From Rhizodiscina lignyota (Eukaryota): a DNA stretch of 64,000 nucleotides. Within the stretch, counting starts at the first letter, position 1, and every line of letters starts with the position of its first letter. The notes beneath the pieces were generated by a model. The model was not told the origin of the DNA. It worked only from the letters and a program-made list of their open reading frames with translations, and searched no databases. Both the position numbers and the translations under genes were made by a program. Location of the stretch: NCBI GenBank assembly GCA_010015805.1, contig ML978143.1:186001-250000 (forward strand). Reading direction: 5' to 3'. Below are positions 1 to 47,162 of this stretch, piece by piece.

Positions 1-930
1 AACAGTTCCAGGATCAGATCAGCGAGGCAACGAGGAGAATATTGCAAGGGGACCGCGGTTATCGAAACACCATGCACCGACCGATTCGGCTGAATTTAGA
101 GCGGATGCAAATAGAGACGGAAGAGGAACCGGCACTGCACGCAAATCGAAACGTATTCGAGACGCTGAAGAAGCACGCCAGGCAGAGGAGCGACTAGAGC
201 CTCTTGAGCGTAGCCCTGAGTTAGGGACTACACCAGTTCCTCCAACTCCGGATACAACGCAAGCTAATAGTCTCCAAGAAACCTTTCACCGACCAAAAGA
301 ACTTTTAAGCGAGAAAGAAGGAGGCCCTCCGCTAGCTGAATCGCCACACCACACTGAATTCCCGGCACCTGCGGCGAACCTATCTGTGCGAAAAAGTCGG
401 AAGAATGGGAAACGCTTAAAAAAGAAGCGCCGAGCTACTCAGTCAACTCCCGATTGCAAGCCCACCCCTGGTAGACGCAATTGCCAGCATGAACTGCCCC
501 TTACCAACGTCGCCGAGGACGAACAACCTCCATTGAAACGCAGAAAGCTTCCAGCATCGCGGGAGTACAAGTGTCCAACTTGCGACCTACGACTTCATGT
601 GTACGTCGGCCAGCAAACTTTCCGAGGAGGCTTATATCATCCCGGTGCGTTCGCGCGTATGGATAGAGAATGACACATTTAGAAGTTGAATGCTAATACC
701 TGATAGGGCATCTTGAAAGAGACCTGGATCACTCGTGGTGGACTGGAGATGGCGTTGATACGTACAATGTGGGCAAGCGACCACCCGAAGAAGCGTACAA
801 ATGGACTTGTTGCGGGGAGGTAGAAAACTGGCCCGCATGCAAACTACATGTGCACGAGTCGGAGATGTTTGATAGATCTGTCTTACCAGATAATTTTGAG
901 GACTCTGACGTCGATGAAAATAGACCTTGA
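1..930 (+). CDS. Zn-finger cluster paralog A (5'-truncated by window edge); exons <1..644, 707..930
   Basis: Frame 2 is open from base 2. KCPTC...LYHPG, then phase-1 intron 645..706 (GTGCGT..GCTAAT..TAG), then GHLERDLDHSWW..AYKWTCCGEVENWPACKLHVH; stop at 928-930. Confidence 0.75.
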
Positions 931-1323
931 AGTCCTGCCAAGCCGCCACGCAGAATGCTCGGTTCCGTTCGAGGAATCGAGCAAGGCTCATGCGCCTTTG
1001 TGTACTATGGGAACGACTCCCACACCTCCATGTAAAATGTTTGGCCTAAACACAAAAAGCATATTATTCTCACTCGATATCCAAGTCCGGAAATATTCGT
1101 GCGATCCTTGGTAAAGTTCACTGTGGCACTCGCTCGTCTCAAAAGCCCCCGTACTATATATCGGAATGGACGGTAAATTCTATTTAAAGATACATACTGT
1201 ACAGAACCTAGCCCTTGTCCATGGCAAGATATCTTAACTTCGGCACACCCCAAGAGCACGGTCTCGTTTCCCGCGCCAGCTCTCCTGAAAATCATATTTC
1301 ACGGCGGGACGTGGCGCGGGTCA

Positions 1324-1340
1324 ACGCGTCACGCGTCGCG
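1324..1340. promoter_or_regulatory. Tandem ACGCGT (MCB-type) boxes about 150 nt upstream of paralog B
   Basis: ACGCGTcACGCGTCGCG at 1324-1340; ACGCGT is the MBF (Mbp1/Res) binding core in ascomycetes. Confidence 0.5.
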
Positions 1341-1484
1341 ATGAATGAATTCCGTCCAAGCACCACTATATGTATCTTCCCCTCTGTAAACTTGATTTTA
1401 CGTTATGAGATCTAGCCCTTCAAATCCATGATTTAAGATATACTCGTCTCTAGTCACGCCCAGCAATCAAAGGGAAAATCCACA

Positions 1485-2503
1485 ATGCCACGAACATGGA
1501 GGGCTTGGTGCCCAAGACTTCAGCACAAGATTGATAACGCAAAACCTCGAAAAAGACGCAGAGCGCTGCGAAAACTACTGCGTCAAATGCCCCATCTTTC
1601 AGAGATCCTTTCTGAACTCTTGAAGCAGAAGGTGCCATTTGTGCAGAGCCTGAGAGTGGGGTATTCATTGCAACTTTTCCAAATACCTTACAGTCTACTC
1701 ACTAACAACAATACCCAGAGATAATATCTATTCGGCAGAGAACCGTAACCTAGCTGGATCAGGCGTTGGACATACTGCAGAAGAGGAGGACGAAGAGCCT
1801 GTAACATCTCCTTTCTCAGATCGCACGCCGAATTCAGGTCAAGCCGCCAGTGGAGTGTCAGAGAATGAAAGTCTCCTCGCGCAAGATGAAAGCGACCTCA
1901 CGTTCATGGATACTCAATCTGGGCCTGCTTCAAACCACACCCAGAGCCATAATAATACCCGTGCTTCTACATCTAAGCGCAATCACTATCCTTTTATTGG
2001 TACGCCATCCAATCGCTCAACAGTGCCAGGACTAAATACGCCGAGATCAAGCACAAAGAAGATTCGGTGGAAGGCCGTAAATGTCAGAACTCCAAAATCC
2101 GGTCATTCGGAGAGGACAGGCAACACCGGGCAAGTCACAGCAGTTGTCATTGTTCCTCCGAAAGATGCATCCGCACCAAGTTCCACAGCCGCAGGGGAGC
2201 CAGAAATTCGAAGATGCAGGTATTGTTGGAATTATATGCCCGACCACCTTTTCGACGGCGCAGAGGAGTGTCACTATCATGAAGGCACAACTTTCTCGCA
2301 TGTTTTGCTACATCCAGATCGCTGACTTATTCCCAGGTAAAAAAGTCAAGGCAGAAACAGGGAGGATATGGAATTGCTGCAGTGTCAAAGCAGGTCGTAA
2401 AATCAAAGGATGCAAGACAAGATGGGCTCATGAGAGGTGTAAACCTAAGAAGGGAAAGCGTAAGTTGACGAATACAGATACAACTGGGGAGGGCGCTGCG
2501 TAA
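1485..2503 (+). CDS. Zn-finger cluster paralog B; exons 1485..1660, 1719..2284, 2337..2503
   Basis: Intron 1661..1718 (GTATTC..ACTAAC..CAG) joins two ORFs in frame. CRYC..ECHYHE, then probable GC-AG intron 2285..2336, then GKKVKAETGRIWNCC..KGCKTRWAH. Confidence 0.7.
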
Positions 2504-2946
2504 CAACAACGAATCTGAGAATGCAAGATCTTCCGGAGCAGGGGGGTAACTAGCAATATGTTTGACAATGTCACAATGTTCAGCAAAACAAGTTGTTGTA
2601 CAAAATTATTATTCTGAACAGTTATCGCACCCCTGCTGATCCCAGGTCAAAGATCGATGTGCGCGGTCAGGGGTAGCTCTGTAAATCTCCGATAGAGTAT
2701 GAGCGTCCGAGCGGTCGGGAGGTGGCTGGGCTTTTGCTGCTCGAGCCATCAAATGTGACAGAGCACATACCAAATTGTGATTCACCCCAGCACCTGAGAC
2801 ATCCATTAACGCGCAACAAACGCGTCGCGGGTAGCATGATGGCGTCGTGGCCGGAGCCTCAAGACATCATCTTGCTAGGCACCGGATTCCCCTGATATAC
2901 CCCTGGCTCGAGTTCTCGCCGTTTCGTGCACCTTCCTCTCGGCTCT

Positions 2947-3593
2947 ATGTCAAACCAAATGGGGAGACGCACTACATATATTATCTAATTAATAATTTTA
3001 GTTTCAATCTCACTATGCGGTGTGGCGCGTTGCCGTTGATGATTTACGGAATCTTTCGGGCATCGTCGATTACACATCTCGCGCAGAAGCAAAATGTTCA
3101 ATGCTCGAATCCAAAAAGGGTAATATTTGGCCATTTGCGGGAGACAAGTACCTTTCAGGAACGTATTTGAATTTTTAATTCTGACTGGTTCCTACAGTTA
3201 CGATGCACCTATTGCGAGGAGTACAAATAGCAGCATACGGAGCAGTCATCTCCAAACTCCATCCATCCCAATTCTAAGAAGCGGATACCGTAGAATTTAT
3301 TGTACAACCCTAATCACTCCGATATTCTCTTTCGCGATGCCAAAATGCAATCTAGAATTAGATACCGGATACACCAAAGGAGATGCTTCCTAGGATCTCG
3401 AGCTCGAGCTCTGATTGGAGGGAGTCATGTGATTCTTTCCCAAACTGGGCTTTATTTGAATGATTGTCCGCGTTGGCAAACAGGAGTGCTCCGAGACATG
3501 CTTTGCTGTACTCGTTGCGAACCGGAGTTTACTACTCAGGAACGTCCTGCGCCGTCTCTCCAGCCGCTCCTTTGTGGATGCAGTAACTTGTAA
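2947..3593 (+). pseudogene. Probable degenerate sixth copy of the Zn-finger family
   Basis: Fragments in shifting frames, in family order: AVWRVAVDDLRNL (~3017), C-x-KCNLELDTGYTKG (3338-3381), LEL-DWRES (~3403), SAPRHALLYS-C (~3485-3518), GCSNL (3576). An ACGCGT cluster sits at 2809-2830. Confidence 0.35.
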
Positions 3594-4657
3594 TGTGTCG
3601 TCTCCCTGCAGAATCCCAGGGCAATCCTGCCTTGACAAGTGCCTGCCCAATCTGCATCCAGCGTTGAGACCCGTGCGAAAGCAGCATGGATATTGGTATG
3701 TGTTCAACGGGCCGTAGCGATCTGATGCATAATATTTGCCACAAGCATCTGACTCAAGTTGCGCTTCGCCTGCGATTACTGGTCAGCACCGAGGCATAAA
3801 AAAAGACGAAATGCACCAGTCTTACGCGGATGGAACAAACAGCACTTGCTCTCTTGAGGCTGATTGGGAAAGAACATGTGAAAGCAACGGACACATTCAA
3901 CACGTCTCTCTGTGTTCTCGTCGGCAGACTCCTCAGCCCCGTCTTCTTCGATCTCGATCACAGGATTAACAGCAGCTTCAGGGCGTCGCTCAACGCTGAA
4001 TCTGGGCAGAAGTTCAGAGGTGGTTTCGTCTGTTCGCTTTTGCTCGAGCTGCAGTTTTAATTTTCGTCGCTTTTCTTTTCTCTTCTCCTTCTCCTTCGCA
4101 GGACGAGAGGAATTCTTTGTGGAGTTCTCTCCTAACTGAGTAGAACTTCCCTGAGTAGTACCGCTTTCTCGAGTTGAGATTGTTTCCTCCATCAAGATTG
4201 GCGCAAACCGAACAGATTTTGGAGCTCGGGGCCAGATATGCCTGGGGCCATTCACAGCGCGGGGAGGAGATGCCAATGTATTGAGCGCATCGTCGATTTT
4301 TGCAGGGGATCCGGAGGAGGCTAATATGTTGAGCGCTTCATTTATCTCCGCATTTTCTTCTACTTCCCATTGCGCTTTTCTTACATGCCTTAAACTGTGA
4401 TCTTTATCAGCTACACACGGCTTGATCTCTGTAGAAATGTCTTACCGGAAGTCTCGCCAGTCACAAGAAGGCAGCTCTTCTAAACCGAGAGGCAGACTTT
4501 TTGTGACATACCGGCGAATGTCAGCTCGCGGAGTTGATTCAAACCAGTTGATCATGCTCAGTGCATAACGCAACTGAGAATTGGTCGCCCGTTCGATCTC
4601 TTCTTGAACAGCTTCGCGCTCAGCAATATCGTCAATATCCGCGTTTGTGGTGTCCAT
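3390..4657 (-). CDS. Zn-finger cluster paralog C; exons 4657..4446, 4394..3826, 3769..3390
   Basis: Introns 4445..4395 and 3825..3770 (GTAAGA donors, GCTGAY branch, CAG) restore one frame: ECVRC..KCCLFHP|REAQLE..YQYPCCFRTGLNAGCRLGRH. Confidence 0.75.
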
Positions 4658-4764
4658 GTCAGAGCCCAGTTCAGAGTCCCTTGCGTCAATTGATTAAACG
4701 TCTACAGAGTACAAAAAAATAAGGCTTGTCTTTGCAGCGGGAGTTGGACGTTGAAATGGAAGAG

Positions 4765-5052
4765 ACGCGTATGACCCGCGTCTATCATTATCGCGTGGCT
4801 TACTCGCACGGTCGTATGGAAATAGGGGGATTCCGCCACCTCCACACCCTGGTTCATGAACAAGTCAGCCCATCACTGTGGAACCTGCAGCCCGGTAGAC
4901 GCGGTTGATCGATTCTTGATCGGGTCACATTATTGGAGGCGCGTGCTTAGAGTTGTTTCATAAGCTTGACATCAAGAGCGCCAGGCTGTGTCCGCAGCAA
5001 GAAAAGGTAACAAACGCATCGGGAGCACTCCGTACGAAGTAATGTGCCGCGT
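4765..5052. promoter_or_regulatory. CGCG/ACGCGT (MCB-type) cluster in the divergent promoter of paralogs C and D
   Basis: ACGCGT 4765, CCGCGT 4776, TCGCGT 4791, ACGCGG 4899, GCGCGT 4939, CCGCGT 5047. Confidence 0.45.
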
Positions 5053-5312
5053 GCATTTCTTGTGAGAACGCCTATCAAGAGCAAAAGCAAATCCCTCATC
5101 TCGGCCGTGTCTCTGCTCCAAACTTTCTCTCCAAATTGCATCACCTCAACTTGAAACCCTTCGCATCTGACATTATCAGCAGCAGGCCCAATTTTCTTTG
5201 ATCGGGTGCGCTTCCATTGCAGGTCTATCAGCTCTGCCTCAATTTTTCGACTCCACAGAGCAGGGCCTCTGTAGTATTGTTACATTGTCTTCCGCAGCAT
5301 TGAATTAACAAG

Positions 5313-6071
5313 ATGTCACGGAGTCAAACAGAGAAGTGCTTACCAGACGACTTGCATCACAAAAAGACAATCGAATTATTCAAAGCTATCAATAGTGCGT
5401 CTCTCGACGACCTCAGACTTGCGCTTTTCAATTCGAGAAGCCAGTGTCTCAATCACGAGCCCATCGAATTCATCCAGGATGTTCAGGGTCGTGACAAAGA
5501 GGTGGACAACTGGGCCGTGATTCAGCACGCGTTCGAGAATTTGGACCTGTCTGGATCGTTGAGAGAGCAAAGAAGCCCGGGGAAGAGGTAAGCTGGGGGA
5601 ATTTCGCTTTTTGCATCAGTTGAGTTATTGAACTGATCAGTGGCTTAGACAAAGCAAAAGAAGCGCAAATTTGCGCACACATATATCTGTTCGAAGTGCG
5701 ACAAAGAGTTCGATCTTATGCATGCTGAAGAAGGGGAGTGCAAGAGGCATTCCGGTATATACGAACACATCTCCCGCTAATCCAGATTGTAGCACTAATT
5801 GTGGATCGTAGGTCAACTCGAAATTGACTGGGAGTATGAATACTGGTATAACATAGAGCCAGAAAGCATAGAGGATGAGTCTCCAGAAGGCACTGGTGCT
5901 CCCATAGAAGCCTACATCTGGTCGTGTTGTATGACAGATGGTACCAACGAAGGTTGCATAGCATCAATACATGAAGCAAAGGGCTACGCTTGGAAGAAAT
6001 CAAAAAACGAAAGCGCACTGCCTATTGAAACTGCCACAGACTTGTACATACTTATTTTCCTTCTGGGTTGA
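5313..6071 (+). pseudogene. Zn-finger cluster paralog D, apparently frameshifted near intron 1; exons 5313..5587, ~5649..5754, 5812..6071
   Basis: ICSKCDKEFD..ECKRHS, phase-1 intron 5755..5811, then GQLEIDWEYEYW..AYIWSCC..EGCIASIH. The GTAAGC donor at 5588 is phase 2 and no nearby AG joins it to the finger frame. Confidence 0.6.
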
Positions 6072-6335
6072 GTGCAGCGTGCCATCCTCGCAATCCTTGA
6101 GAACTTCGAAAAGAAAGTGCGCATCAATCACCTTAGAGTAACAATTTTTCCTCTCTGATAGAGATGTATTACAGTTTATATTATATCAATCCATTCACGA
6201 TTCTGAAGAATATTGCTCTCACGTGGATGGCGGGGTGGTCTTGTCCAGTGTTTTGGATGCACCTCGCGATCTCACTCTTTCGGCTCATTTCCTCAAATCA
6301 CTGGTCACAACTCTTTTTAACAACGAATACAAGAA

Positions 6336-8342
6336 ATGGAAGGATTTGCAGATCCTGAGGAGATTCAGAGGTCCCTAGACAGCCAGTTAGGAATCGAGCG
6401 TCCACTACACTGGGGAAGGGACGCGTTCGAGCTGGTGTTGCGGCACGAAGAAGTACTCCAGACGTATATTGACCCGACGAATATCATTCAGCTGAAATAT
6501 GCGATCTTAAAGACAATTGATCGGAGCAAGAAATCATACAACGCGTTCATAAAGGCCGTGACCGAAGATGTACCACTCGATCTCCGAAAACGTTGGAAAG
6601 ACGCGTCGCAACGCGTCGAATCTGAGCGCGTCAAGGTTATTTCGACCGCCTCACAGGACAGCTACGGACCAGACGATGACAAACTGTTCGATGATTTTAT
6701 AGGCTTCGATGAAGCTTTTCCAGAACCGTTCCAAAGTACGAACGACAAAGATTCTGAATATGACTCCAACTATGGCAGCTCTATCTCATCAACAGCAGCC
6801 GAGGACAAGGATTCCTCATCGTCTGTCTCCTCAACAGAGTCACGAAATTCGCCAACCAAGCGGAAAAGGTCCTCTAAAGAGCAAACAATTTCGAGAGGTC
6901 GTGATCCGTCACCACAGACAGTCACTATCGATCTATCAAATGTCACGGCTCTTGGCGAAAACAGCAAGTACATTCAGCTTGCGTACTGCACAAACTGCGG
7001 AAAGCACTTTGACCCGGATAAGCCCGTTCTAGATGAATGCAGATACCATCCATGTGAGTGTCACGGCGTCAACTGAGGCAGTTCGTTAGCTAACTATCCC
7101 ACTCCAGATAAAGCAGAGCTTGATAAGCGGACTGCGTATATGAAAGAATACAACACGGGAATGCACGATGACTATGTCAAGAAGCATGGAATGCCGCCAT
7201 ATGCCCATCATCACCCTTGCTGCGAGAAGCCAATGGGTGGGAGAGGCTGTGTGGCGGGATATCATGTCCCCAGGCTATGGATGAAAATCTACATCGGCGG
7301 TGACTGCGATGAAAAGCAGACATCGTTCTGTAAGTCTTGCGTCTCCTTGGGACCTGAGAACCTGAACATCCCTGAACTGAAGGTTCTGAAGCGTCTGGAG
7401 AGACGCATGACTCCATTTGAGAAACTCCCGGACAAGACGCAAGATCAGCGGGTTACCTCCGAATTGATTCGTACGCCCCACAACAAAGTTGACAAGACCA
7501 TATCAGCTGCTGTACGGCTGGGAGATAGGCCAAGAGCGAACCCGGACCGTGCAATACATACCTCGAATAACAAGATTCCCACTCCTCCGGCATCCTCTCC
7601 CCCGAAACGTTCGGGAGGCAAGCGAAAATGGGCGGACTCGAATCGCGCGACAGATCAGAACACTCCCTCCAGCTCTGGTTCTACTGCAAAATCAGTCGAC
7701 AAGGATATGAGAGCAGGTTCGATTTATTCAATACGCCCTGAGCAGCACAAGGTCCTTTCCACTCCTGCTCCAGCTAAACAATCTGGCGAGAAACGAAGAA
7801 GAACAGATTCGGAGCAATCGATACATGCTGAAGAGAAGAGAGCACCTGCCAAACGTCTCATCGACAATCTGAAGTCAGTGAACTCGGAAACTTCGAAACG
7901 GAGAGAGACCACGGGCGTTACATCTAGCTCACGTCCAACCGGAGGTTCAGCACGAGAATTCAAAACACCTCAAGCACAGCACAGTCTTCCTTTGGTATCA
8001 TCCGGTGGCCGATCGATCGTCTCAACGATTGAAGCAGGACCATCGTCGAATCGTTCGGTGGGGACGTCAGTGAAGCAAACGACAACGCCTTCGGCTGCGT
8101 ATCCAGTTGGAAATACGGCGCGAGTCTTCAAAACACCTCAAGTACAGCGCACCCTTTCTTTGACATCCTCCAGTGACCGGTCGAACACATCAACAGCCGT
8201 AGCCGGACCATCCTCGAATCATTCAAAAGGTCCCTCGGCAGGGCAAGTCCGGCAGCAGACGCTACCGTTTACAACGGTCAGACAGTCGTCAAACGTGGCC
8301 ACACCATATCAGGGCAAAGGAAAACGGAAAGCGGGATTTTGA
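6336..8342 (+). CDS. Zn-finger cluster paralog E with long S/T/K-rich C-terminus; exons 6336..7053, 7108..8342
   Basis: YCTNCGKHFD..ECRYHP, phase-1 intron 7054..7107 (GTGAGT..GCTAAC..CAG), then YKAELD..HPCCEKPMGGRGCVAGYH. Basic NLS-like stretches (KRKR, GKRK). Confidence 0.8.
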
Positions 8343-8830: not shown

Positions 8831-10602
8831 ATGACATCCATCGAGGCGACAGCGACCGGCAGTCCAAGTCCAAAACGTACTCTGACGGACGAAGTGAGTG
8901 AGCGAAATGGAAAGCGGCGTAAACTTCATGGCCGGGCATTCTATGAGAGCTTGGGAAGCCCAAAGATTATCCTTGCACCAATGGTCGACCAGTCAGAATT
9001 TGTATGAGCCTGTATTCATTCTTTTATCAGCACGTAGAGACTGACATCTTATAGGCATGGCGCATGCTTACTCGCTCATTCCTCCCTCCCGAGTCCTCCA
9101 AAAGCCTCCTTGCCTATTCGCCCATGTTCCATTCGCGCCTCTTCAACGAAGACCGAAAGTACCGCGACCAACACTTCCAGCCAGTACGCGGCCCCTTACC
9201 TTCTCCGCCAGACTCCTATCACCAGGACGAGTTCAATGAAGGCAATTGTTACCTTGATGGCAACCCCACAATAGACCGGCCACTCTTCGTACAGTTCTGT
9301 ACGAATTCACCAAACGATTTCTACGAGGCCGCGCGATACGTGCAGGGTTGGTGCGATGCAGTGGACTTGAATCTGGGTTGTCCGCAAGGAATCGCAAAGA
9401 AAGGACACTATGGAGCATTCCTGCAGGAGGACCAAGATCTCATATGCAGACTGATCAGGAAGCTGCACGATGAGCTAGATGTTCCAGTGACGGCGAAGAT
9501 GCGGATACTTGATACGAAGGAGAGGAGTCTAGCATATGCTAAGAGGATTCTAGATGCTGGCGCAAGCATAATTACAGTGCATGGGCGACAGCGAGACCAG
9601 AAAGGCCACAACACTGGGCTGGCGGACTGGTCTGCGATCCGATATCTGAGGAACAATCTTCCACCTGAGACTGTCATCTTCGCGAATGGGAATATTCTGC
9701 AGCATGGAGACATAGAACGCTGTTTGGAAGAGACTGGTGTTGACGGAGTGATGAGCGCGGAAGGGAATCTTCATGATCCATCCATCTTTGCGGAGCCGCC
9801 ACCTGTCGGCCAGGAAGGTCGTGAATATTGGCGTGGCGGAGATGGGAAAGGTGGTTATCGGGTTGATGCGGTCATGAGACGGTATATGGACATCATCTAC
9901 AAATACGTACTGGAACGGCCGCCGCCGCCTCGTGGACCTCTTTTCATACCTAGCGACGAACAACCGACAGATGATGCGCAAAAGACCAATGGAGAAAAGC
10001 GCTCAGCTGAGGCGAATGGTGAATGTGAAGATAACACGCCGCTGCGCAAAAAGAGGAAGAAGGATAAAAACAATGGAAAGCAACAACAGCGGGAGACGAA
10101 CCCAAATTTGTGCGCAATGCAGCCGCACCTGTTTTCATTGCTACGACACTTCATCTCAGTGCGTCACGAGGTTCGCGACGCACTAGCTCACAGTCGTGCT
10201 GGGGACATTGAAGGATTTGAAAACGTTCTGCGGTTGGTCGAGATTGCTGTGAAAGAAGGAATCCTCGAGTACGAGCGATCTGCCAAAGCTGAATCAGCTA
10301 CCACGAACGGAGAGCAGGAGACGGCGAAAGACGCGCACAAACCCGAGAGCGAGTCTTCGGAGGCTGCAATTGCGCGATGCCAGAGACCGTTTTGGATTTG
10401 CCAGCCATACGTCAGACCACTGCCAAAGGAAGCCTTCGAGAAAGGCAGTATGCAGCTATCCAAGAAAGACAAGGCGAGGCTGGCGAAGGAAGCGGAACTT
10501 GCAAAGAGCACTGGATTGAATCCCGAGGGCAGGGTAGAGGTCAAAGACATTGGGCGTGATACCCAGGTTGAGATACCGAAGGAAGGAGTTGTTTGTGGAT
10601 AG
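8831..10602 (+). CDS. DUS1: tRNA-dihydrouridine(16/17) synthase; exons 8831..9001, 9055..10602
   Basis: LAPMVDQSEF|AWRML, DRPLFVQF, DLNLGCPQGIAKKGHYGAFL, ITVHGR, ANGNI, GVMSAEG. Confidence 0.93.
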
Positions 10603-14381: not shown

Positions 14382-15863
14382 CTACCTAGGATGGAACCAC
14401 ACTCCCACACCCTCAAGCTTAGAAAGAAACGCTGCAGGCGTAAACGCACTCTTATCCCATTCAACCTCAACGTCATACTTCGTGAATACGGTAGCAAGCA
14501 TCTTCAGCAGAATAAATTGAGCTAGATACTGCCCAGGACACGATCTCGACGGACCACCCCATATCAACAGCGCTCGTTGCATCGCCCTTACATGCTCCGC
14601 ATCGCCCACGAGCCATCGATCGGGATTGTACGTCTCTGCATCCGCGCCGTAGACGTCTGGATTGCGGTGTGCTACATAAGGACAGCATCCAACGGTCGTG
14701 CCCCCGGGGAGGTAGTATCCATCGACTGTGGTTCCGCGTCGAGGAACCTTGCGTCCCAATTGTACCCAGATGACTGGGATAATGCGCATTGCTTCTTTGA
14801 GGCATGCGTCGAAGTACGGTAGGACGGCGACTTCGCTGTATTTTGGCGGATCACTTAAATTCGCGCCGTCGAGCTCTGCGACCAAGCGAGCTTTAATATC
14901 CGGGTTTGTTCCAACGTTGGCAAAGAAAGAGAGCATCGAGACGAGGGTTGTGTCATGCCCCGCGCCCAGGTTTGTCAGAAGCATATTCTTCGACCACAGG
15001 AGTCTCCAATTCGGACGGCGGTGGTGTAGCAGAATCAAATCCTTCGCCATGTCATTTCGCGGATCGTCCTCGGGCGCCTTGTTCGCATCATCGATGCGCG
15101 CCTGCGCGTGAGCCCCTAGCCACTTGCTGAGATGGCTTTGATGCGGCGGCTTTATCAGGAATGCATAGCACACCAGCGGTCTCAGAGCTTTGAGTTTCTG
15201 GGAGATGTACGTGCCGATCTTGCTAAGCCCGATGACGCTGTAGTACTTCCATACCAGGTCATGCCCCCTGATAGCTCCGTGGTCATGGCCGTCTTTGATA
15301 TAGCCAGGACGGTCTGAGAATGAGACTTCTGCGAGCGCGTCGCACATGAAGGCGTGTAGTTTGATGTCTATGTCAAGCCCTTGTCCATTACCAGTACGCA
15401 GATTCTCCTCCAAGTCTACCAGCACCCTGTTCACGCTGTCCTCGTACTTTTGCACACTTGCTGTGGAGTAGACTGGGCCCACGATCCGTCGCTGCAGGCG
15501 GCGCTTTTCGTCGTTCATCTCTCCGAGGAAATCCAAACCGTCTGGTGTGTCATCAGAGCGAGTTATCCAGTACCAATCCGCCTTTACGAATCCGCTTCCC
15601 GCTCCGTAGACTGTCTTGAGTGACGATGCCGACCATACGCTCACTTCATTAGGGGATATGCGAACGACAGGCCCGTACCTCTTGTGTAGGTCAAGTGCAG
15701 CATGCTGGAAGTTCCCTCGGTGATATTTGTGGATGAGCCATAGTCTGGATATCCGTGCAAAGAATGGACCTGGAACGTTTGCCAGTGGGTGGAGGTAGAG
15801 GTTGTAGATGGCGTTTATCAACGGAAGAATGATAACTATAGCTGCTATCCAACCGACATCCAT
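14382..15863 (-). CDS. Cytochrome P450 (intronless, about 493 aa)
   Basis: N-terminal TM anchor, HPLANVPGP, YGPVVRISPNEV, I-helix AGHDTT, EAMR (ExxR), YNPDRW, heme loop WGGPSRSCPG. Confidence 0.93.
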   Translation of the reverse strand: MDVGWIAAIVIILPLINAIYNLYLHPLANVPGPFFARISRLWLIHKYHRGNFQHAALDLHKRYGPVVRISPNEVSVWSASSLKTVYGAGSGFVKADWYWITRSDDTPDGLDFLGEMNDEKRRLQRRIVGPVYSTASVQKYEDSVNRVLVDLEENLRTGNGQGLDIDIKLHAFMCDALAEVSFSDRPGYIKDGHDHGAIRGHDLVWKYYSVIGLSKIGTYISQKLKALRPLVCYAFLIKPPHQSHLSKWLGAHAQARIDDANKAPEDDPRNDMAKDLILLHHRRPNWRLLWSKNMLLTNLGAGHDTTLVSMLSFFANVGTNPDIKARLVAELDGANLSDPPKYSEVAVLPYFDACLKEAMRIIPVIWVQLGRKVPRRGTTVDGYYLPGGTTVGCCPYVAHRNPDVYGADAETYNPDRWLVGDAEHVRAMQRALLIWGGPSRSCPGQYLAQFILLKMLATVFTKYDVEVEWDKSAFTPAAFLSKLEGVGVWFHPR

Positions 15864-16501
15864 CTTGCTGGTTTCAAGGAGTTTGCTATGTTTCGAGAGC
15901 TCTTGGTGCAGTGTTGGCTGGATAGCGGACAAGCCGGAGTAATCAGCTCCCAGAAGCTTATGATAATGAAATTGCCTCAGTTGGTTCCGAGGTTACATGC
16001 CGTGAACACCCCAACCCCGTTCGGAATATTGATCTACTCATTCAGCGTTGCGAATGAAGTCGTCGAAAAAACAAGAACGAAAGATAAAATCCACTTTATT
16101 AGGAAGCATTGAAATGAAAGCTGCACTTGGATAGGTGATCAAGATCGGGACAATAATAAGTCAAAGCAGGTCGCCGCTCGTCTTACATTGCCACCAGTAT
16201 CACAGTGTCAGCAAGATATCCAAACCGAGCAGGTGTCACTGGTGACAGGACGTTGCATGGGCAGCATGGCGTATCACCGGTATGGTGAATGAGGGAATGG
16301 CTGCGAGAGGTTAGCGGTCAAGAGCGATGCACCAGCCGGGATTTTAAATACAACCGATCGTGTCCTGTATGGCTATACAATAGCTCTCAAAGCGGTAATT
16401 GGTGCATCCAAACAGGAAGGAGCGATGTCCTGATACAATACTAGACTCGGTCGAGAACTGTGGAGGAGCATGTGTGGTAAGAAAATTCAAGAGCATTCAT
16501 T

Positions 16502-45766: not shown

Positions 45767-45881
45767 GATATACAACGTTGCTGCCCGCGTGTCTCGCCCT
45801 CATCATCATTTTATTTCAACGGTGAATTTTCCCATCCTATAAAGCCTTCCCCTTTCCTTGTCCTCCAACCTTCTTCAACAC

Positions 45882-46043
45882 TGCACTCAGAAACGCTCAG
45901 AACCATTACCCTCAGAAACATCACATCACCTTCAGAACCATCGCACTCAGAATCTCATCATGAGCATCATGAGCATTTGTAAGCATCACAACCAGAAGCA
46001 CGGCACTCGGAAGCATCGCACCCATAAACGTGGCATTCAGAAG
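45882..46043 (+). repeat. Degenerate 15-bp repeat (CATCGCACTCAGAAR-like)
   Basis: CTCAGAA/CAGAAG core recurring at about 15-nt spacing; translates as H-x-T-Q-K-like pentads. Confidence 0.55.
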
Positions 46044-47162
46044 TTCCCCATGAGCCTCACTCTCAAACGCCGTCTGAGAGTCCCTGCACCATTCGGGAGA
46101 GATGAAGAAGGCTATGCCATCTTCGGACCTATCCGTAGGCCTCCAATAATCCACCGACCGAGTGACTACTTTACTCAGGCGGCCGAACACCGCATGGCTC
46201 GCTATGAAACGCACTATCCTCGCCTCTGTAAATGGAAGTTGTCTCTATCAACAAATCCTCAAACGCGAAGCAGGCTCTTCACGAAGCTCCCTCCAGAAAT
46301 CCGACTCATGATTTACGAATATGCGCTTTGCCAGCCGGACGGCATTCCACTCTGGCGTGGACCTTCATCTGCGAACGTTGAAAAACGTCAAAACCCAAAC
46401 GTCTACTATAAAAGGAGACACGAGAACCATTTACAGAGAGCGAAGAGCTACGAGCAAATGAGCCAAGACGTCGGTTCCATTCTCTGCACCTGCAAGCGCC
46501 TTTACATGGAAGCAAGAGATCTATTATTCACGACAAACACATTCAAGGTTCTCTTTCTCATGGGAGGTGATGAAAATCACATCTCACGACCTCTTCGAAA
46601 GATTGCCCCACTAATACAACATTTGGAGATCGAATTGAGTCCCGATGTCTATTGCACCTGGCATTTGGACGGGAACTCCATGCTTATGGAACTCTGCAGA
46701 CTCATCGACGACTTCCATTACGGCGAGATGCTTCGTTCGCTGAGAATATATATTAATTGCAATGAGAAGCAACTCGGGCAAACAAAGTCAGCATTCGGCA
46801 TAAGTTGCTTAAGAGCATGGATCGCAGGGACTAAGGCGTGCCTGAAGCAATTGAGCAACTTCCACGTCGCAGGATCCGTCCTCGTTGGGGATAACTTTTC
46901 CGAATTGCTCTCGTTCCCTGACCTCGGATGCACCCAGGGGCAAATCGACGATTTCAAATTGGAGGACGTGCAAGCTGCTATACGGAACAAAATGCCTCTG
47001 ACAGTCCCACCATCGGACTTTGAAGAGAGACAACGACAATACACGAAGGGTAACTTTAGTATGCACTATCTTGGTTTTCCAGTCTACCGCCTAGGCCCTG
47101 TCCAAGAGTGGTACGACGGCACTTGGGATGTTGTAGACAGTAAGACTCAAATTTTTGGATAG
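45960..47162 (+). CDS. Hypothetical protein with an F-box-like motif; start uncertain (45960 or 46050)
   Basis: SRLFTKLPPEIRLMIYEYAL and SILCTCKRLYMEARDLLFTTNTF, typical of fungal F-box-like accessory proteins. Confidence 0.7.
   Translation: MSIMSICKHHNQKHGTRKHRTHKRGIQKFPMSLTLKRRLRVPAPFGRDEEGYAIFGPIRRPPIIHRPSDYFTQAAEHRMARYETHYPRLCKWKLSLSTNPQTRSRLFTKLPPEIRLMIYEYALCQPDGIPLWRGPSSANVEKRQNPNVYYKRRHENHLQRAKSYEQMSQDVGSILCTCKRLYMEARDLLFTTNTFKVLFLMGGDENHISRPLRKIAPLIQHLEIELSPDVYCTWHLDGNSMLMELCRLIDDFHYGEMLRSLRIYINCNEKQLGQTKSAFGISCLRAWIAGTKACLKQLSNFHVAGSVLVGDNFSELLSFPDLGCTQGQIDDFKLEDVQAAIRNKMPLTVPPSDFEERQRQYTKGNFSMHYLGFPVYRLGPVQEWYDGTWDVVDSKTQIFG

What the first reader, a model, noticed from the sequence alone, without database searches (positions are those of the whole stretch)
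1..8342. Tandem cluster of five highly divergent Zn-finger genes sharing one intron position inside a CHORD/Btk/REXO1-like module
Seen: five adjacent ORFs that look unrelated each splice into CxxC-x13-15-(C)-xx-H-x|x ... (W/Y/H)xCC-x8-10-(G/A)C-x4-5-H. A: CPTC..LYHP|G..WTCC..AC..H. B: CRYC..CHYHE|G..WNCC..GC..H. C: CVRC..CLFHP|R..YPCC..GC..H. D: CSKC..CKRHS|G..WSCC..GC..H. E: CTNC..CRYHP|Y..HPCC..GC..H. All five have a phase-1 intron in the second codon after the His. B-E also share an N-terminal helix (IDNAKPRKRRRALRKL / IERATNSQLRYALSMI / INSASLDDLRLAL / IDPTNIIQLKYAILKTI), and all carry basic NLS-like tracts. Knowledge: the ligand pattern resembles CHORD, the Btk motif and the REXO1/Rex3 N-terminal zinc module. 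Inference: an old, rapidly diversifying local family of nuclear zinc-binding adaptors under birth-and-death evolution, as seen in genome-defence or conflict loci. I know of no described function.
Basis: partly seen in the sequence, partly recalled or inferred. Interest (0 to 1): 0.85.

Follow-up and report, generated by a model that had tools for sequence, protein, structure and literature searches.

The report
Fast-diverging array of CHORD-like zinc genes
Five neighbouring genes of the wood fungus Rhizodiscina lignyota are very divergent copies of a widespread but unstudied fungal gene family whose two-zinc module is a stretched relative of the CHORD protein-binding domain.

Summary
Window 1-8342 carries five genes (A, B, D, E on +, C on -). 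Each is split by a phase-1 intron one base into the second codon after the first His of a CxxC...CxxH...[W/Y/H]xCC...C...H module. The second-half motif occurs 5 times in 64 kb, only here, against 0.055 expected.

The genome is Rhizodiscina lignyota. The deposited model of E confirms its junction exactly. The deposited models of B and C splice the module out, and B needs a GC donor to keep it.

The intron is ancestral. It sits at the same base in 15 of 16 distinct relatives on metagenome contigs.

What is special is the local array. The copies share a median 14% non-ligand identity, against 38% among relatives from other fungi, yet keep the eight zinc ligands (A lacks one).

Function is unknown. 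My best reading is zinc-scaffolded protein-binding adaptors with relaxed or diversifying surfaces, some copies decaying. The conflict-locus idea is untested.

The parts
1..930 (+). Gene A, cut at the window start. Exons are 2-644 and 707-930 (stop 928-930), with the module intron at 645-706 (GT..AG, phase 1). The module spans about 572-855. The third zinc ligand is Gly instead of Cys (ligand string CCGHCCCH).
   Evidence: ORFs; junction; 31.3 bits (E 1.7e-8) against the independent family HMM; ligand string. No deposited model was found.
1485..2503 (+). Gene B. Exons are 1485-1660, 1719-2284 and 2337-2503, giving 302 aa if the module intron 2285-2336 is removed. That intron needs a GC donor (GCACAA). 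The module is 2215-2431. It has no family insert: the His-to-CC spacing is 14, as in canonical CHORD.
   Evidence: The deposited model P0027 (NA57DRAFT_62248, 226 aa) confirms the first intron but uses a GT donor at 2220 to the same acceptor at 2336 and stops one codon later. The family HMM gives only 9.9 bits (E 0.08).
3390..4657 (-). Gene C. Exons are 4657-4446, 4394-3826 and 3748-3390, giving 379 aa. The module intron is 3825-3749 (GTAAGA..AG, phase 1). The module is 3895-3639.
Evidence: The deposited model P0026 (NA57DRAFT_82089, 259 aa) shares the first 238 residues but removes 3892-3770 and ends in another frame. HMM score is 19.2 bits (E 1e-4).
5313..6071 (+). Gene D. The module exons are 5649-5754 and 5812-6071, with the module intron at 5755-5811 (GTATAT..AG, phase 1). 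The module is 5688-5972. It is the copy closest to the family consensus. The putative first exon 5313-5587 carries the N-terminal helix, but its best donor (GTAAGC, phase 2) and the acceptor at 5648 (phase 0) join out of frame.
   Evidence: 64.0 bits (E 1e-18). Junction enumeration shows that only weaker donors, such as GTGATT at 5517, keep the frame. No deposited model was found.
6336..8342 (+). Gene E. Exons are 6336-7053 and 7108-8342, giving 650 aa. The module intron is 7054-7107 (GTGAGT..AG, phase 1). The module is 6987-7265. A long Ser/Thr/Pro/Lys-rich tail follows.
   Evidence: Identical to the deposited protein P0001 = NA57DRAFT_62250. HMM score 51.7 bits. A partial orthologue, P0002, is 67% identical over the second half.

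Best explanation
The region is a lineage-specific tandem array of five paralogues. A sixth, P0006, has two modules and lies on the same 259-kb contig outside the window. All belong to an uncharacterised family of small proteins found across the Pezizomycotina.

Shown:
- The family's hallmark is a 77-residue module, C-x2-C-x13-C-x2-H-x40-CC-x8-C-x4-H.
- Its profile and predicted fold relate it to the two-zinc CHORD domain. It differs by a 26-residue acidic insert and a shorter last loop.
- The phase-1 intron after 'YH-x' is ancestral to the family.
- The local copies have diverged several-fold faster than relatives in other fungi, while keeping the eight Cys/His ligands.

Inferred:
- Each module binds two zinc ions through two C3H sites, as CHORD does.
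- The zinc sites hold a small rigid scaffold, and the variable surface and insert mediate protein-protein contacts.
- The K/R patch just upstream of the module directs the proteins to the nucleus.
- After duplication the copies were free to change partners or to decay. D, and perhaps E, keep the ancestral role. A (lost Cys3), B (lost insert, GC donor) and D's 5' junction show erosion.
For: Homology of the five:
- Motif statistics and the independent HMM.
- The same HMM position (about 35-38) is interrupted in A, D and E.

The family:
- A profile search of 1.84 billion representatives gave 22 proteins at E<=0.001.
- Named members come from Candelina, Xanthoria, Diplogelasinospora, Rhypophila, Colletotrichum and Rhizodiscina.
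- 24 of the 30 nearest ESM Atlas clusters are ascomycete clusters with no common Pfam family, or with DUF8254 on 14% of members.

CHORD link:
- The family profile matches 2yrt at E 1e-5 with both halves aligned, and 2xcm at E 0.13.
- E's module alone matches 2yrt at E 0.018.
- 13 of 20 relatives give sub-threshold Pfam CHORD hits.

Ancestral intron:
- 15 of 16 distinct modules on metagenome contigs have a GT (14) or GC (1) donor exactly 4 nt after the His codon. Removing that intron restores the conserved linker.
- 25 of 33 loci are split at the same HMM position, 2 are contiguous, and in 6 only the second half was seen.

Fast divergence with ligand retention:
- Non-ligand identity has a median of 14% among 21 Rhizodiscina pairs, against 38% among 496 pairs of 32 other modules.
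- Ligands read CCCHCCCH in 38 of 39 rows.
- Terminal branches are 1.25-3.3 against a median of 0.37.
Against: - No expression data. Deposited gene models keep the module only in E and P0006; those of B and C remove it.
- B scores only 9.9 bits on the family HMM.
- No member reaches Pfam's CHORD cut-off: best 16.9 bits against 24.6.
- The model of E's own module is mediocre (pLDDT 70.4) and found no significant fold match.
- Zinc binding, nuclear location and protein binding are all inferred.
- The tree has few columns (77) and long branches, so it neither shows nor excludes a single local origin: the Rhizodiscina label needs 4 changes, and starred branches force at least 2.
- Fast divergence may be plain relaxation of constraint.
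Confidence: 0.7

Rival explanations
1. The array is mostly decaying. One or two copies (D and/or E, plus P0006) do the family's job. A, B and C are redundant duplicates drifting towards pseudogenes, and the extreme divergence is relaxed constraint with no new function.
For: - A has lost zinc ligand Cys3.
- B has lost the family insert and needs a non-canonical GC donor.
- D's first exon joins out of frame at the best sites.
- The deposited models of B and C omit the module.
- No deposited model was found for A or D.
Against: - All exons stay open over long stretches: 223, 223, 221 and 421 aa stop-free frames.
- 7 or 8 of 8 ligands survive even though non-ligand identity is near saturation at a median of 14%. 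Long neutral decay would not allow this.
- An unrelated family member (L016/L018) also has a GC donor at this intron, so GC may be tolerated.
- C's second half is still 65% identical to P0006 over 26 residues.
Confidence: 0.25
2. The array is a conflict or defence locus. The copies would be under diversifying selection because they bind fast-evolving partners such as selfish elements, NLR-type receptors or pathogen proteins.
For: - The scaffold is conserved while surfaces are hyper-divergent, and terminal branches are 3-9 times the family median.
- The copies are arranged in tandem.
- CHORD protein RAR1 is described as an Hsp90 cochaperone that acts with Sgt1 (PMC12129344, passages read). That it chaperones plant immune receptors is recalled.
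Against: - The flanks hold housekeeping genes: Dus, P450, amidase, PLP decarboxylase, adenosine deaminase, a DEAD helicase and TAF4.
- There are no repeats or transposon traces between the copies, and RIP indices are ordinary.
- No selection test was possible.
- Elsewhere the family is single-copy within 20 kb on the five contigs that have full 10-kb flanks on both sides (L001, L002, L007, L009, L022).
Confidence: 0.12
3. The proteins are Hsp90/Sgt1-type co-chaperone adaptors that use the CHORD-like module as RAR1 and CHORDC1 do.
For: Sequence and fold similarity to the CHORD domains of CHORDC1 and RAR1. CHORD domains mediate Hsp90-Sgt1 contacts (PMC12129344, passages read).
Against: - There is a single module, no CS domain, a 26-residue insert and a shortened last loop.
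- Rex3's CHORD shows that the fold is also used outside Hsp90 biology (PMC12129344).
- No binding was tested here.
Confidence: 0.1
4. The proteins are nucleic-acid-binding zinc fingers or transcription factors, as the automatic UniProt name 'C2H2-type domain-containing protein' suggests.
For: The source name carried by two relatives, and the basic tracts next to the module.
Against: No C2H2 or other DNA-binding Pfam family was hit at E<=1 in 20 relatives, or at E<=10 in E and the exon translations. The ligand pattern and fold point to CHORD, a protein-binding module.
Confidence: 0.08

Closest known systems
CHORD domain (Pfam PF04968; RAR1, CHORDC1/morgana, melusin)
   Same: - Eight ligands in the same order (C, C, C, H, then C, C, C, H).
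- x13 between Cys2 and Cys3, the 'C-x-YHPG' and 'WxCC...GC-x4-H' signatures, and x4 before the last His. These can be read from the alignments to 2yrt.
- The family profile matches 2yrt at E 1e-5.
- The best fold hit is 2xcm.
- B even has the canonical 14-residue His-to-CC spacing.
   Different: - The first pair is C-x2-C, not C-x4-C.
- There are 40 instead of 14 residues between His1 and CC, an acidic 'ExDxDxDxWADHDE..HGxID..PEGF' insert.
- There are 8 instead of 15 residues between CC and Cys.
- The module is single rather than tandem, and there is no CS domain.
- All scores are below Pfam's gathering cut-off.
Single CHORD domain of Rex3/REXO1 exonucleases (PMC12129344; Pfam REXO3_N named in the ESM Atlas output)
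   Different: No KIX domain and no DEDDh exonuclease domain follow the module here (no RNase_T hit). The paper calls Rex3 the only CHORD protein of S. cerevisiae and S. pombe and does not mention this family.
Btk motif (Pfam PF00779)
   Same: The 'HP..-x-CC-x8-10-GC' half resembles it. One ESM Atlas neighbour cluster carries BTK on 13% of its members.
   Different: No Pfam BTK hit in any protein scanned. There is no PH domain. The Btk motif binds one zinc, while this module has two C3H sets.
Unnamed ascomycete family. Examples: Colletotrichum graminicola GLRG_00888 (P0023), Diplogelasinospora grovesii QBC46DRAFT_358212 (P0004), Rhypophila decipiens V8F06_012028 (P0008). Labelled 'hypothetical' or 'C2H2-type domain-containing'. 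Pfam DUF8254 sits on 14% of one Atlas cluster.
   Same: The module, the intron position, the K/R patch before the module and, for C, D and E, the N-terminal helix pattern. D scores 64 bits on its HMM.
   Different: The window's copies are arrayed in tandem. They are far more divergent, vary in module length (55-76 residues against 77), and E has a 350-residue tail.

Membership tests
CHORD (PF04968) | Six Cys and two His in the order C,C,C,H / C,C,C,H | tested here: met
   38 of 39 aligned modules read CCCHCCCH. A reads CCGHCCCH.
CHORD (PF04968) | Score at or above Pfam's gathering cut-off (24.6 bits) | tested here: not met
   There were no CHORD hits for the 13 exon translations or for E at E<=10. 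13 of 20 relatives hit at 11.2-16.9 bits (E 0.0097-0.59), all below the cut-off.
CHORD (PF04968) | Significant sequence-profile match to a solved CHORD domain | tested here: met
   Family profile A5 matches 2yrt_A at E 1e-5 (28.9 bits, both halves aligned) and 2xcm_E at E 0.13. Only 3 chains were listed at E<=10.
CHORD (PF04968) | CHORD fold | tested here: inconclusive
   [not shown]
CHORD (PF04968) | Canonical spacing (C-x4-C; 14 residues from His to CC; about 15 from CC to Cys) and tandem CHORD plus CS architecture | tested here: not met
   The family has C-x2-C, x40 and x8. Only B has x14. The modules are single, or repeated without a CS domain.
CHORD (PF04968) | Binds two zinc ions; binds Hsp90 or Sgt1 | not testable with these tools
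   Needs metal analysis and binding assays.
Btk motif (PF00779) | Pfam match, directly after a PH domain | tested here: not met
   No BTK or PH hit.
Rex3/REXO1 | CHORD followed by a DEDDh exonuclease domain, with an upstream KIX domain | tested here: not met
   No RNase_T or EloA-BP1 hit in the exon translations, in E or in 20 relatives.
Unnamed ascomycete CHORD-like family | Module matches an HMM built from members of other fungi | tested here: met
   D scores 64.0 bits, E 51.7, A 31.3 and C 19.2 (E 1e-4). B scores 9.9 bits (E 0.08) and is inconclusive alone. Shuffled controls scored at most 6.4 bits.
Unnamed ascomycete CHORD-like family | Phase-1 intron 4 nt after the first His codon | tested here: met
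   All five window genes have it, as do 15 of 16 distinct metagenome-locus modules.
Unnamed ascomycete CHORD-like family | N-terminal helix 'I-x-x-A-x4-[LI]R-x-[AI]L' and helical bundle | tested here: inconclusive
   The pattern is present in C, D and E and in 7 relatives by regex. C against P0006 gives E 6e-9. Two HMMs of the relatives' N-termini gave no significant hit in the window.
C2H2 zinc finger (source label) | Pfam zf-C2H2 match | tested here: not met
   The only hit is one sub-threshold ZNF451-type match in P0011 (17.1 bits against a cut-off of 30). Nothing in the window's proteins.

The most novel reading that the evidence does not exclude
The array is a fungal counterpart of the plant RAR1 idea. 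It would be a set of rapidly diversifying single-CHORD adaptors, each tuned to a different fast-evolving client (for example fungal NLR-like receptors or selfish-element proteins). The zinc scaffold would be fixed and the 40-residue insert and surface would be under positive selection. That would make the family a previously unrecognised, Pezizomycotina-wide component of client-specific chaperoning or genome conflict.
Probability: 0.07. Interest if true: 0.8.

Novelty: new variant of a known kind. Interest (0 to 1): 0.45.

Why it matters
CHORD domains are known from a handful of co-chaperones and, since 2025, from Rex3/REXO1. That paper calls Rex3 the only CHORD protein of two model yeasts (S. 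cerevisiae and S. pombe).

This work points to a separate, large family of filamentous ascomycetes built on a stretched CHORD-like module. Current Pfam thresholds miss it, automatic naming mislabels it as C2H2, and I found no paper on it.

The Rhizodiscina array is a natural experiment on that scaffold: seven modules in one genome, saturated at every position except the zinc ligands. It shows which residues are structurally indispensable, and it offers material for asking whether the surfaces are drifting or being selected.

It also flags two probably wrong deposited gene models (B and C) and a conserved intron that can be used to repair models of this family.

Tried and rejected
- Pfam on the 13 exon translations and on E found nothing relevant at E<=10.
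- No whole genome is held for this window. The sequence upstream of base 1 and the place of P0006 could therefore not be inspected. That P0006 lies just upstream is only suggested by its record number and the shared contig length.
- Exon fragments of A-D could not be aligned reliably to E's first half. The search profile A3 therefore carried only E's first half plus six second halves.
- Two HMMs of the relatives' N-terminal helices did not pick up the window's N-termini.
- RIP indices in the cluster (TpA/ApT 0.62; (CpA+TpG)/(ApC+GpT) 1.27) are like the rest of the window.
- There are no nucleotide repeats between the paralogues.
- Chance resemblance of unrelated Cys-rich ORFs is rejected.
A 5-row alignment worked.
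- Earlier findings of this scan held nothing relevant.
- Literature searches found no paper on DUF8254, PF26782 or this family. Only the Rex3 CHORD paper was relevant.
- P0013, P0020 (long proteins with partial or 21-fold repeated matches) and P0010 (three insert-less modules, unknown taxon) were left out of the alignments and the tree.
- No complex prediction was run, because I claim no specific partner.


Full report
**What is there.**
- The window comes from Rhizodiscina lignyota (Dothideomycetes, Aulographales). Its gene E is letter for letter the deposited protein NA57DRAFT_62250.
- Stop-to-stop frames and junction inspection show five genes in 1-8342.
  - A: 2-644 / 707-930, cut by the window start.
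  - B: 1485-1660 / 1719-2284 / 2337-2503.
  - C, on the minus strand: 4657-4446 / 4394-3826 / 3748-3390.
  - D: module exons 5649-5754 / 5812-6071.
  - E: 6336-7053 / 7108-8342.
- Each carries CxxC-x13-19-(C)xxH, then an intron, then [W/Y/H]xCC-x8-10-C-x4-5-H.
- The five introns are 52-77 nt and phase 1, and all start 4 nt after the His codon.

**Is it more than chance?**
- The second-half pattern occurs five times in the six-frame translation of the 64-kb window, all in this region. 200 shuffles gave a mean of 0.055 and a maximum of 2.
- The first-half pattern with three Cys occurs six times. Four are here. Two are elsewhere with no second half. The shuffle mean was 0.47.
- An HMM built only from 17 relatives of other fungi, with no Rhizodiscina row, scores the spliced modules D 64.0 bits (E 1e-18), E 51.7, A 31.3, C 19.2 (E 1e-4) and B 9.9 (E 0.08). 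The database held 1,438 sequences. The best of 100 shuffled controls scored 6.4 bits.
- One unrelated antisense ORF reached 11.5 bits (E 0.025).
- So four of the five are family members on statistics alone. B rests on the ligand pattern, the shared acceptor and its position.

- B's module-preserving donor is GCACAA, a GC-AG intron.
- C's split codon is C|AT = His.
- A has Gly where the third Cys should be.
- D's helix-bearing first exon (5313-5587) has a strong GTAAGC donor in phase 2, but the strong acceptor at 5648 is in phase 0. The best sites therefore join out of frame, and only weaker donors keep the frame.

**Deposited gene models.**
- The deposited models confirm only part of the picture.
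- P0027 (B, 226 aa) confirms B's first intron. It then uses a GT donor at 2220 with the same acceptor at 2336 and stops one codon later.
- P0026 (C, 259 aa) confirms C's first intron. It then removes 3892-3770 and ends in another frame.
- No model of A or D turned up in two word-based searches. Those searches use at most 100 words, so absence is weak evidence.
The deposited C-terminus has no relative.

**What the module is.**
- Pfam finds nothing in the exon translations or in E.
- I built a profile from E's module, its partial orthologue P0002 and the second halves of A-D (A3). Searched against 1.84 billion representatives, it gave 22 proteins at E<=0.001.
- The 18 that I read are small proteins sharing ICxxCxxxFDxxxNxxxxCxYHPGxLExDxDxDxWADHDExxHGxIDxxxxRxxxPEGFxWxCCxxxGxxxGCxxGxH.
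- Named members come from Candelina, Xanthoria, Diplogelasinospora, Rhypophila and Colletotrichum. One is from Rhizodiscina itself: P0006 (NA57DRAFT_62246, 491 aa, two modules, on the same 259,274-bp contig).
- From first Cys to last His the module is 77 residues in most members: C-x2-C-x13-C-x2-H-x40-CC-x8-C-x4-H.
- In the ESM Atlas, 24 of the 30 nearest clusters to P0008 are ascomycete clusters with no common Pfam family, or with DUF8254 on 14% of members.

**Relation to CHORD.**
- 13 of 20 relatives give Pfam CHORD hits at E 0.0097-0.59. All are below the 24.6-bit cut-off.
- E's module alone finds the CHORD domain of human CHORDC1 (2yrt) as its best solved relative, at E 0.018.
- The 19-row family profile finds 2yrt at E 1e-5 with both halves aligned, and RAR1 CHORD2 (2xcm) at E 0.13.
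- The AlphaFold model of P0008 (pLDDT 80.6, module blocks 80-94) has 2xcm as its top hit in Foldseek (E 0.075, prob 0.95, TM 0.55 by target, next row E 3.6).
- The model of E's own module was poorer and matched nothing significantly.
- I conclude that the module is a divergent relative of CHORD, not a member of Pfam's family. The first pair is C-x2-C. A 26-residue acidic insert sits between His1 and CC. The last loop is 8 rather than 15 residues. The module is single and has no CS domain. B alone has the canonical 14-residue spacing.

**The intron is ancestral.**
- A scan of metagenome contigs with five typical members returned 33 loci.
- By HMM, 25 loci are split at the same model position (about 31-43), 2 are contiguous, and in 6 only the second half was seen.
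- Among the 16 distinct modules in which both halves were recognised, 15 have a donor exactly 4 nt after the His codon in phase 1. Fourteen are GT and one (L016/L018) is GC. Removing that intron restores the conserved linker. One module (L002/L003) is intronless.
- The shared intron therefore dates from the family's origin and is not special to this cluster. It also supports the five junctions by comparison.

**What is special here.**
- On the five contigs with full 10-kb flanks on both sides (L001, L002, L007, L009, L022) the family is single-copy. L005 has a tandem pair, and L030 has an extra half-module.
- Rhizodiscina has five genes in 8.3 kb, plus P0006.
- Their non-ligand identity has a median of 14% (3-37%, 21 pairs). 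Among 32 modules from other fungi the median is 38% (14-77%, 496 pairs).
- Even so, 38 of 39 rows keep CCCHCCCH.
- In a quick maximum-likelihood tree (39 rows, 77 columns) the terminal branches are A 3.32, B 3.24, E 3.04, P0006-m1 1.99, C 1.82, D 1.25 and P0006-m2 0.99. The median is 0.37.
- C, E and both P0006 modules group together with P0018 (SH-aLRT 95). A and B sit with another long row. D sits with the mainstream family. A single local origin is neither shown nor excluded.
- There is no nucleotide similarity between the copies and no RIP signature.
- The neighbours are ordinary genes.

**How it most likely works.**
- Shown: homology to CHORD, conserved ligands, a conserved intron, and fast local divergence.
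- Inferred:
  - Two C3H sites bind two zinc ions and hold a small scaffold.
  - The variable surface and acidic insert make protein contacts, as CHORD domains do.
  - The K/R patch 5-12 residues before the module (KKRKA-like in relatives; KQKKRK in D, KRKR in E) acts as a nuclear signal.
  - A helical N-terminal bundle is a second interaction surface. The P0008 model has four helices. The helix motif is present in C, D and E, but HMMs of it were not significant.
- After duplication, D stayed close to the consensus. The others changed partners or are eroding.
- I put about 0.7 on this overall reading. I put 0.25 on 'mostly decaying copies', and about 0.1 each on the conflict-locus and Hsp90-adaptor versions.

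**Novelty.**
- The family exists in databases as hypothetical or mislabelled proteins.
- I found no paper on it in four full-text searches.
- It is a new variant of a known kind of domain, and the array is a new, moderately interesting case of scaffold-constrained hyper-divergence.

Noticed in passing
window 7934-8056 and 8102-8224: E's C-terminal tail holds two copies of a 123-nt unit (73% identical, 168 nt apart). They encode the repeated '...AR[EV]FKTPQ[AV]Q...' segment of a Ser/Thr-rich, probably disordered tail.
   Followed up: no
window 1485-2503 and 3390-4657: The deposited gene models of B (NA57DRAFT_62248) and C (NA57DRAFT_82089) splice out the zinc module. Comparison with the family suggests both are mis-modelled at their last intron.
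   Followed up: partly
L016 2088-2378, L018 1203-1493: An unrelated family member on metagenome contigs has a GC donor (GCGCGT) at exactly the conserved intron position. This parallels B's GC donor.
   Followed up: partly
P0015 (608 aa): One relative is annotated as a cytochrome P450 fused to the helix-plus-module unit. This is probably two neighbouring genes merged in a gene model. A P450 gene also lies about 6 kb from the array in this window (14385-15992, minus strand).
   Followed up: no
L005 5-317 and 809-1156; L030 1935-2627: Small tandem duplications of the family also occur elsewhere. L005 has two modules 0.8 kb apart, and L030 has an extra second half.
   Followed up: partly
P0010 (321 aa, JGI/IMG metagenome): A protein of unknown taxon carries insert-less modules (CxxC..CSYHP..FPCC..GC..H) plus an extra CxxC pair. 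It may represent a compact, B-like form of the module outside the named ascomycetes.
   Followed up: no
window 9055-64000: The flanking genes are ordinary. They include dihydrouridine synthase (9055-10602), P450, amidase, PLP decarboxylase, adenosine deaminase, a DEAD-box helicase, a DUF7730/2EXR protein (45843-47162), a 1621-aa DUF4045/gelsolin-repeat protein, a beta-CASP metallo-beta-lactamase and a TAF4-like protein.
   Followed up: partly
[not shown]
   Followed up: no
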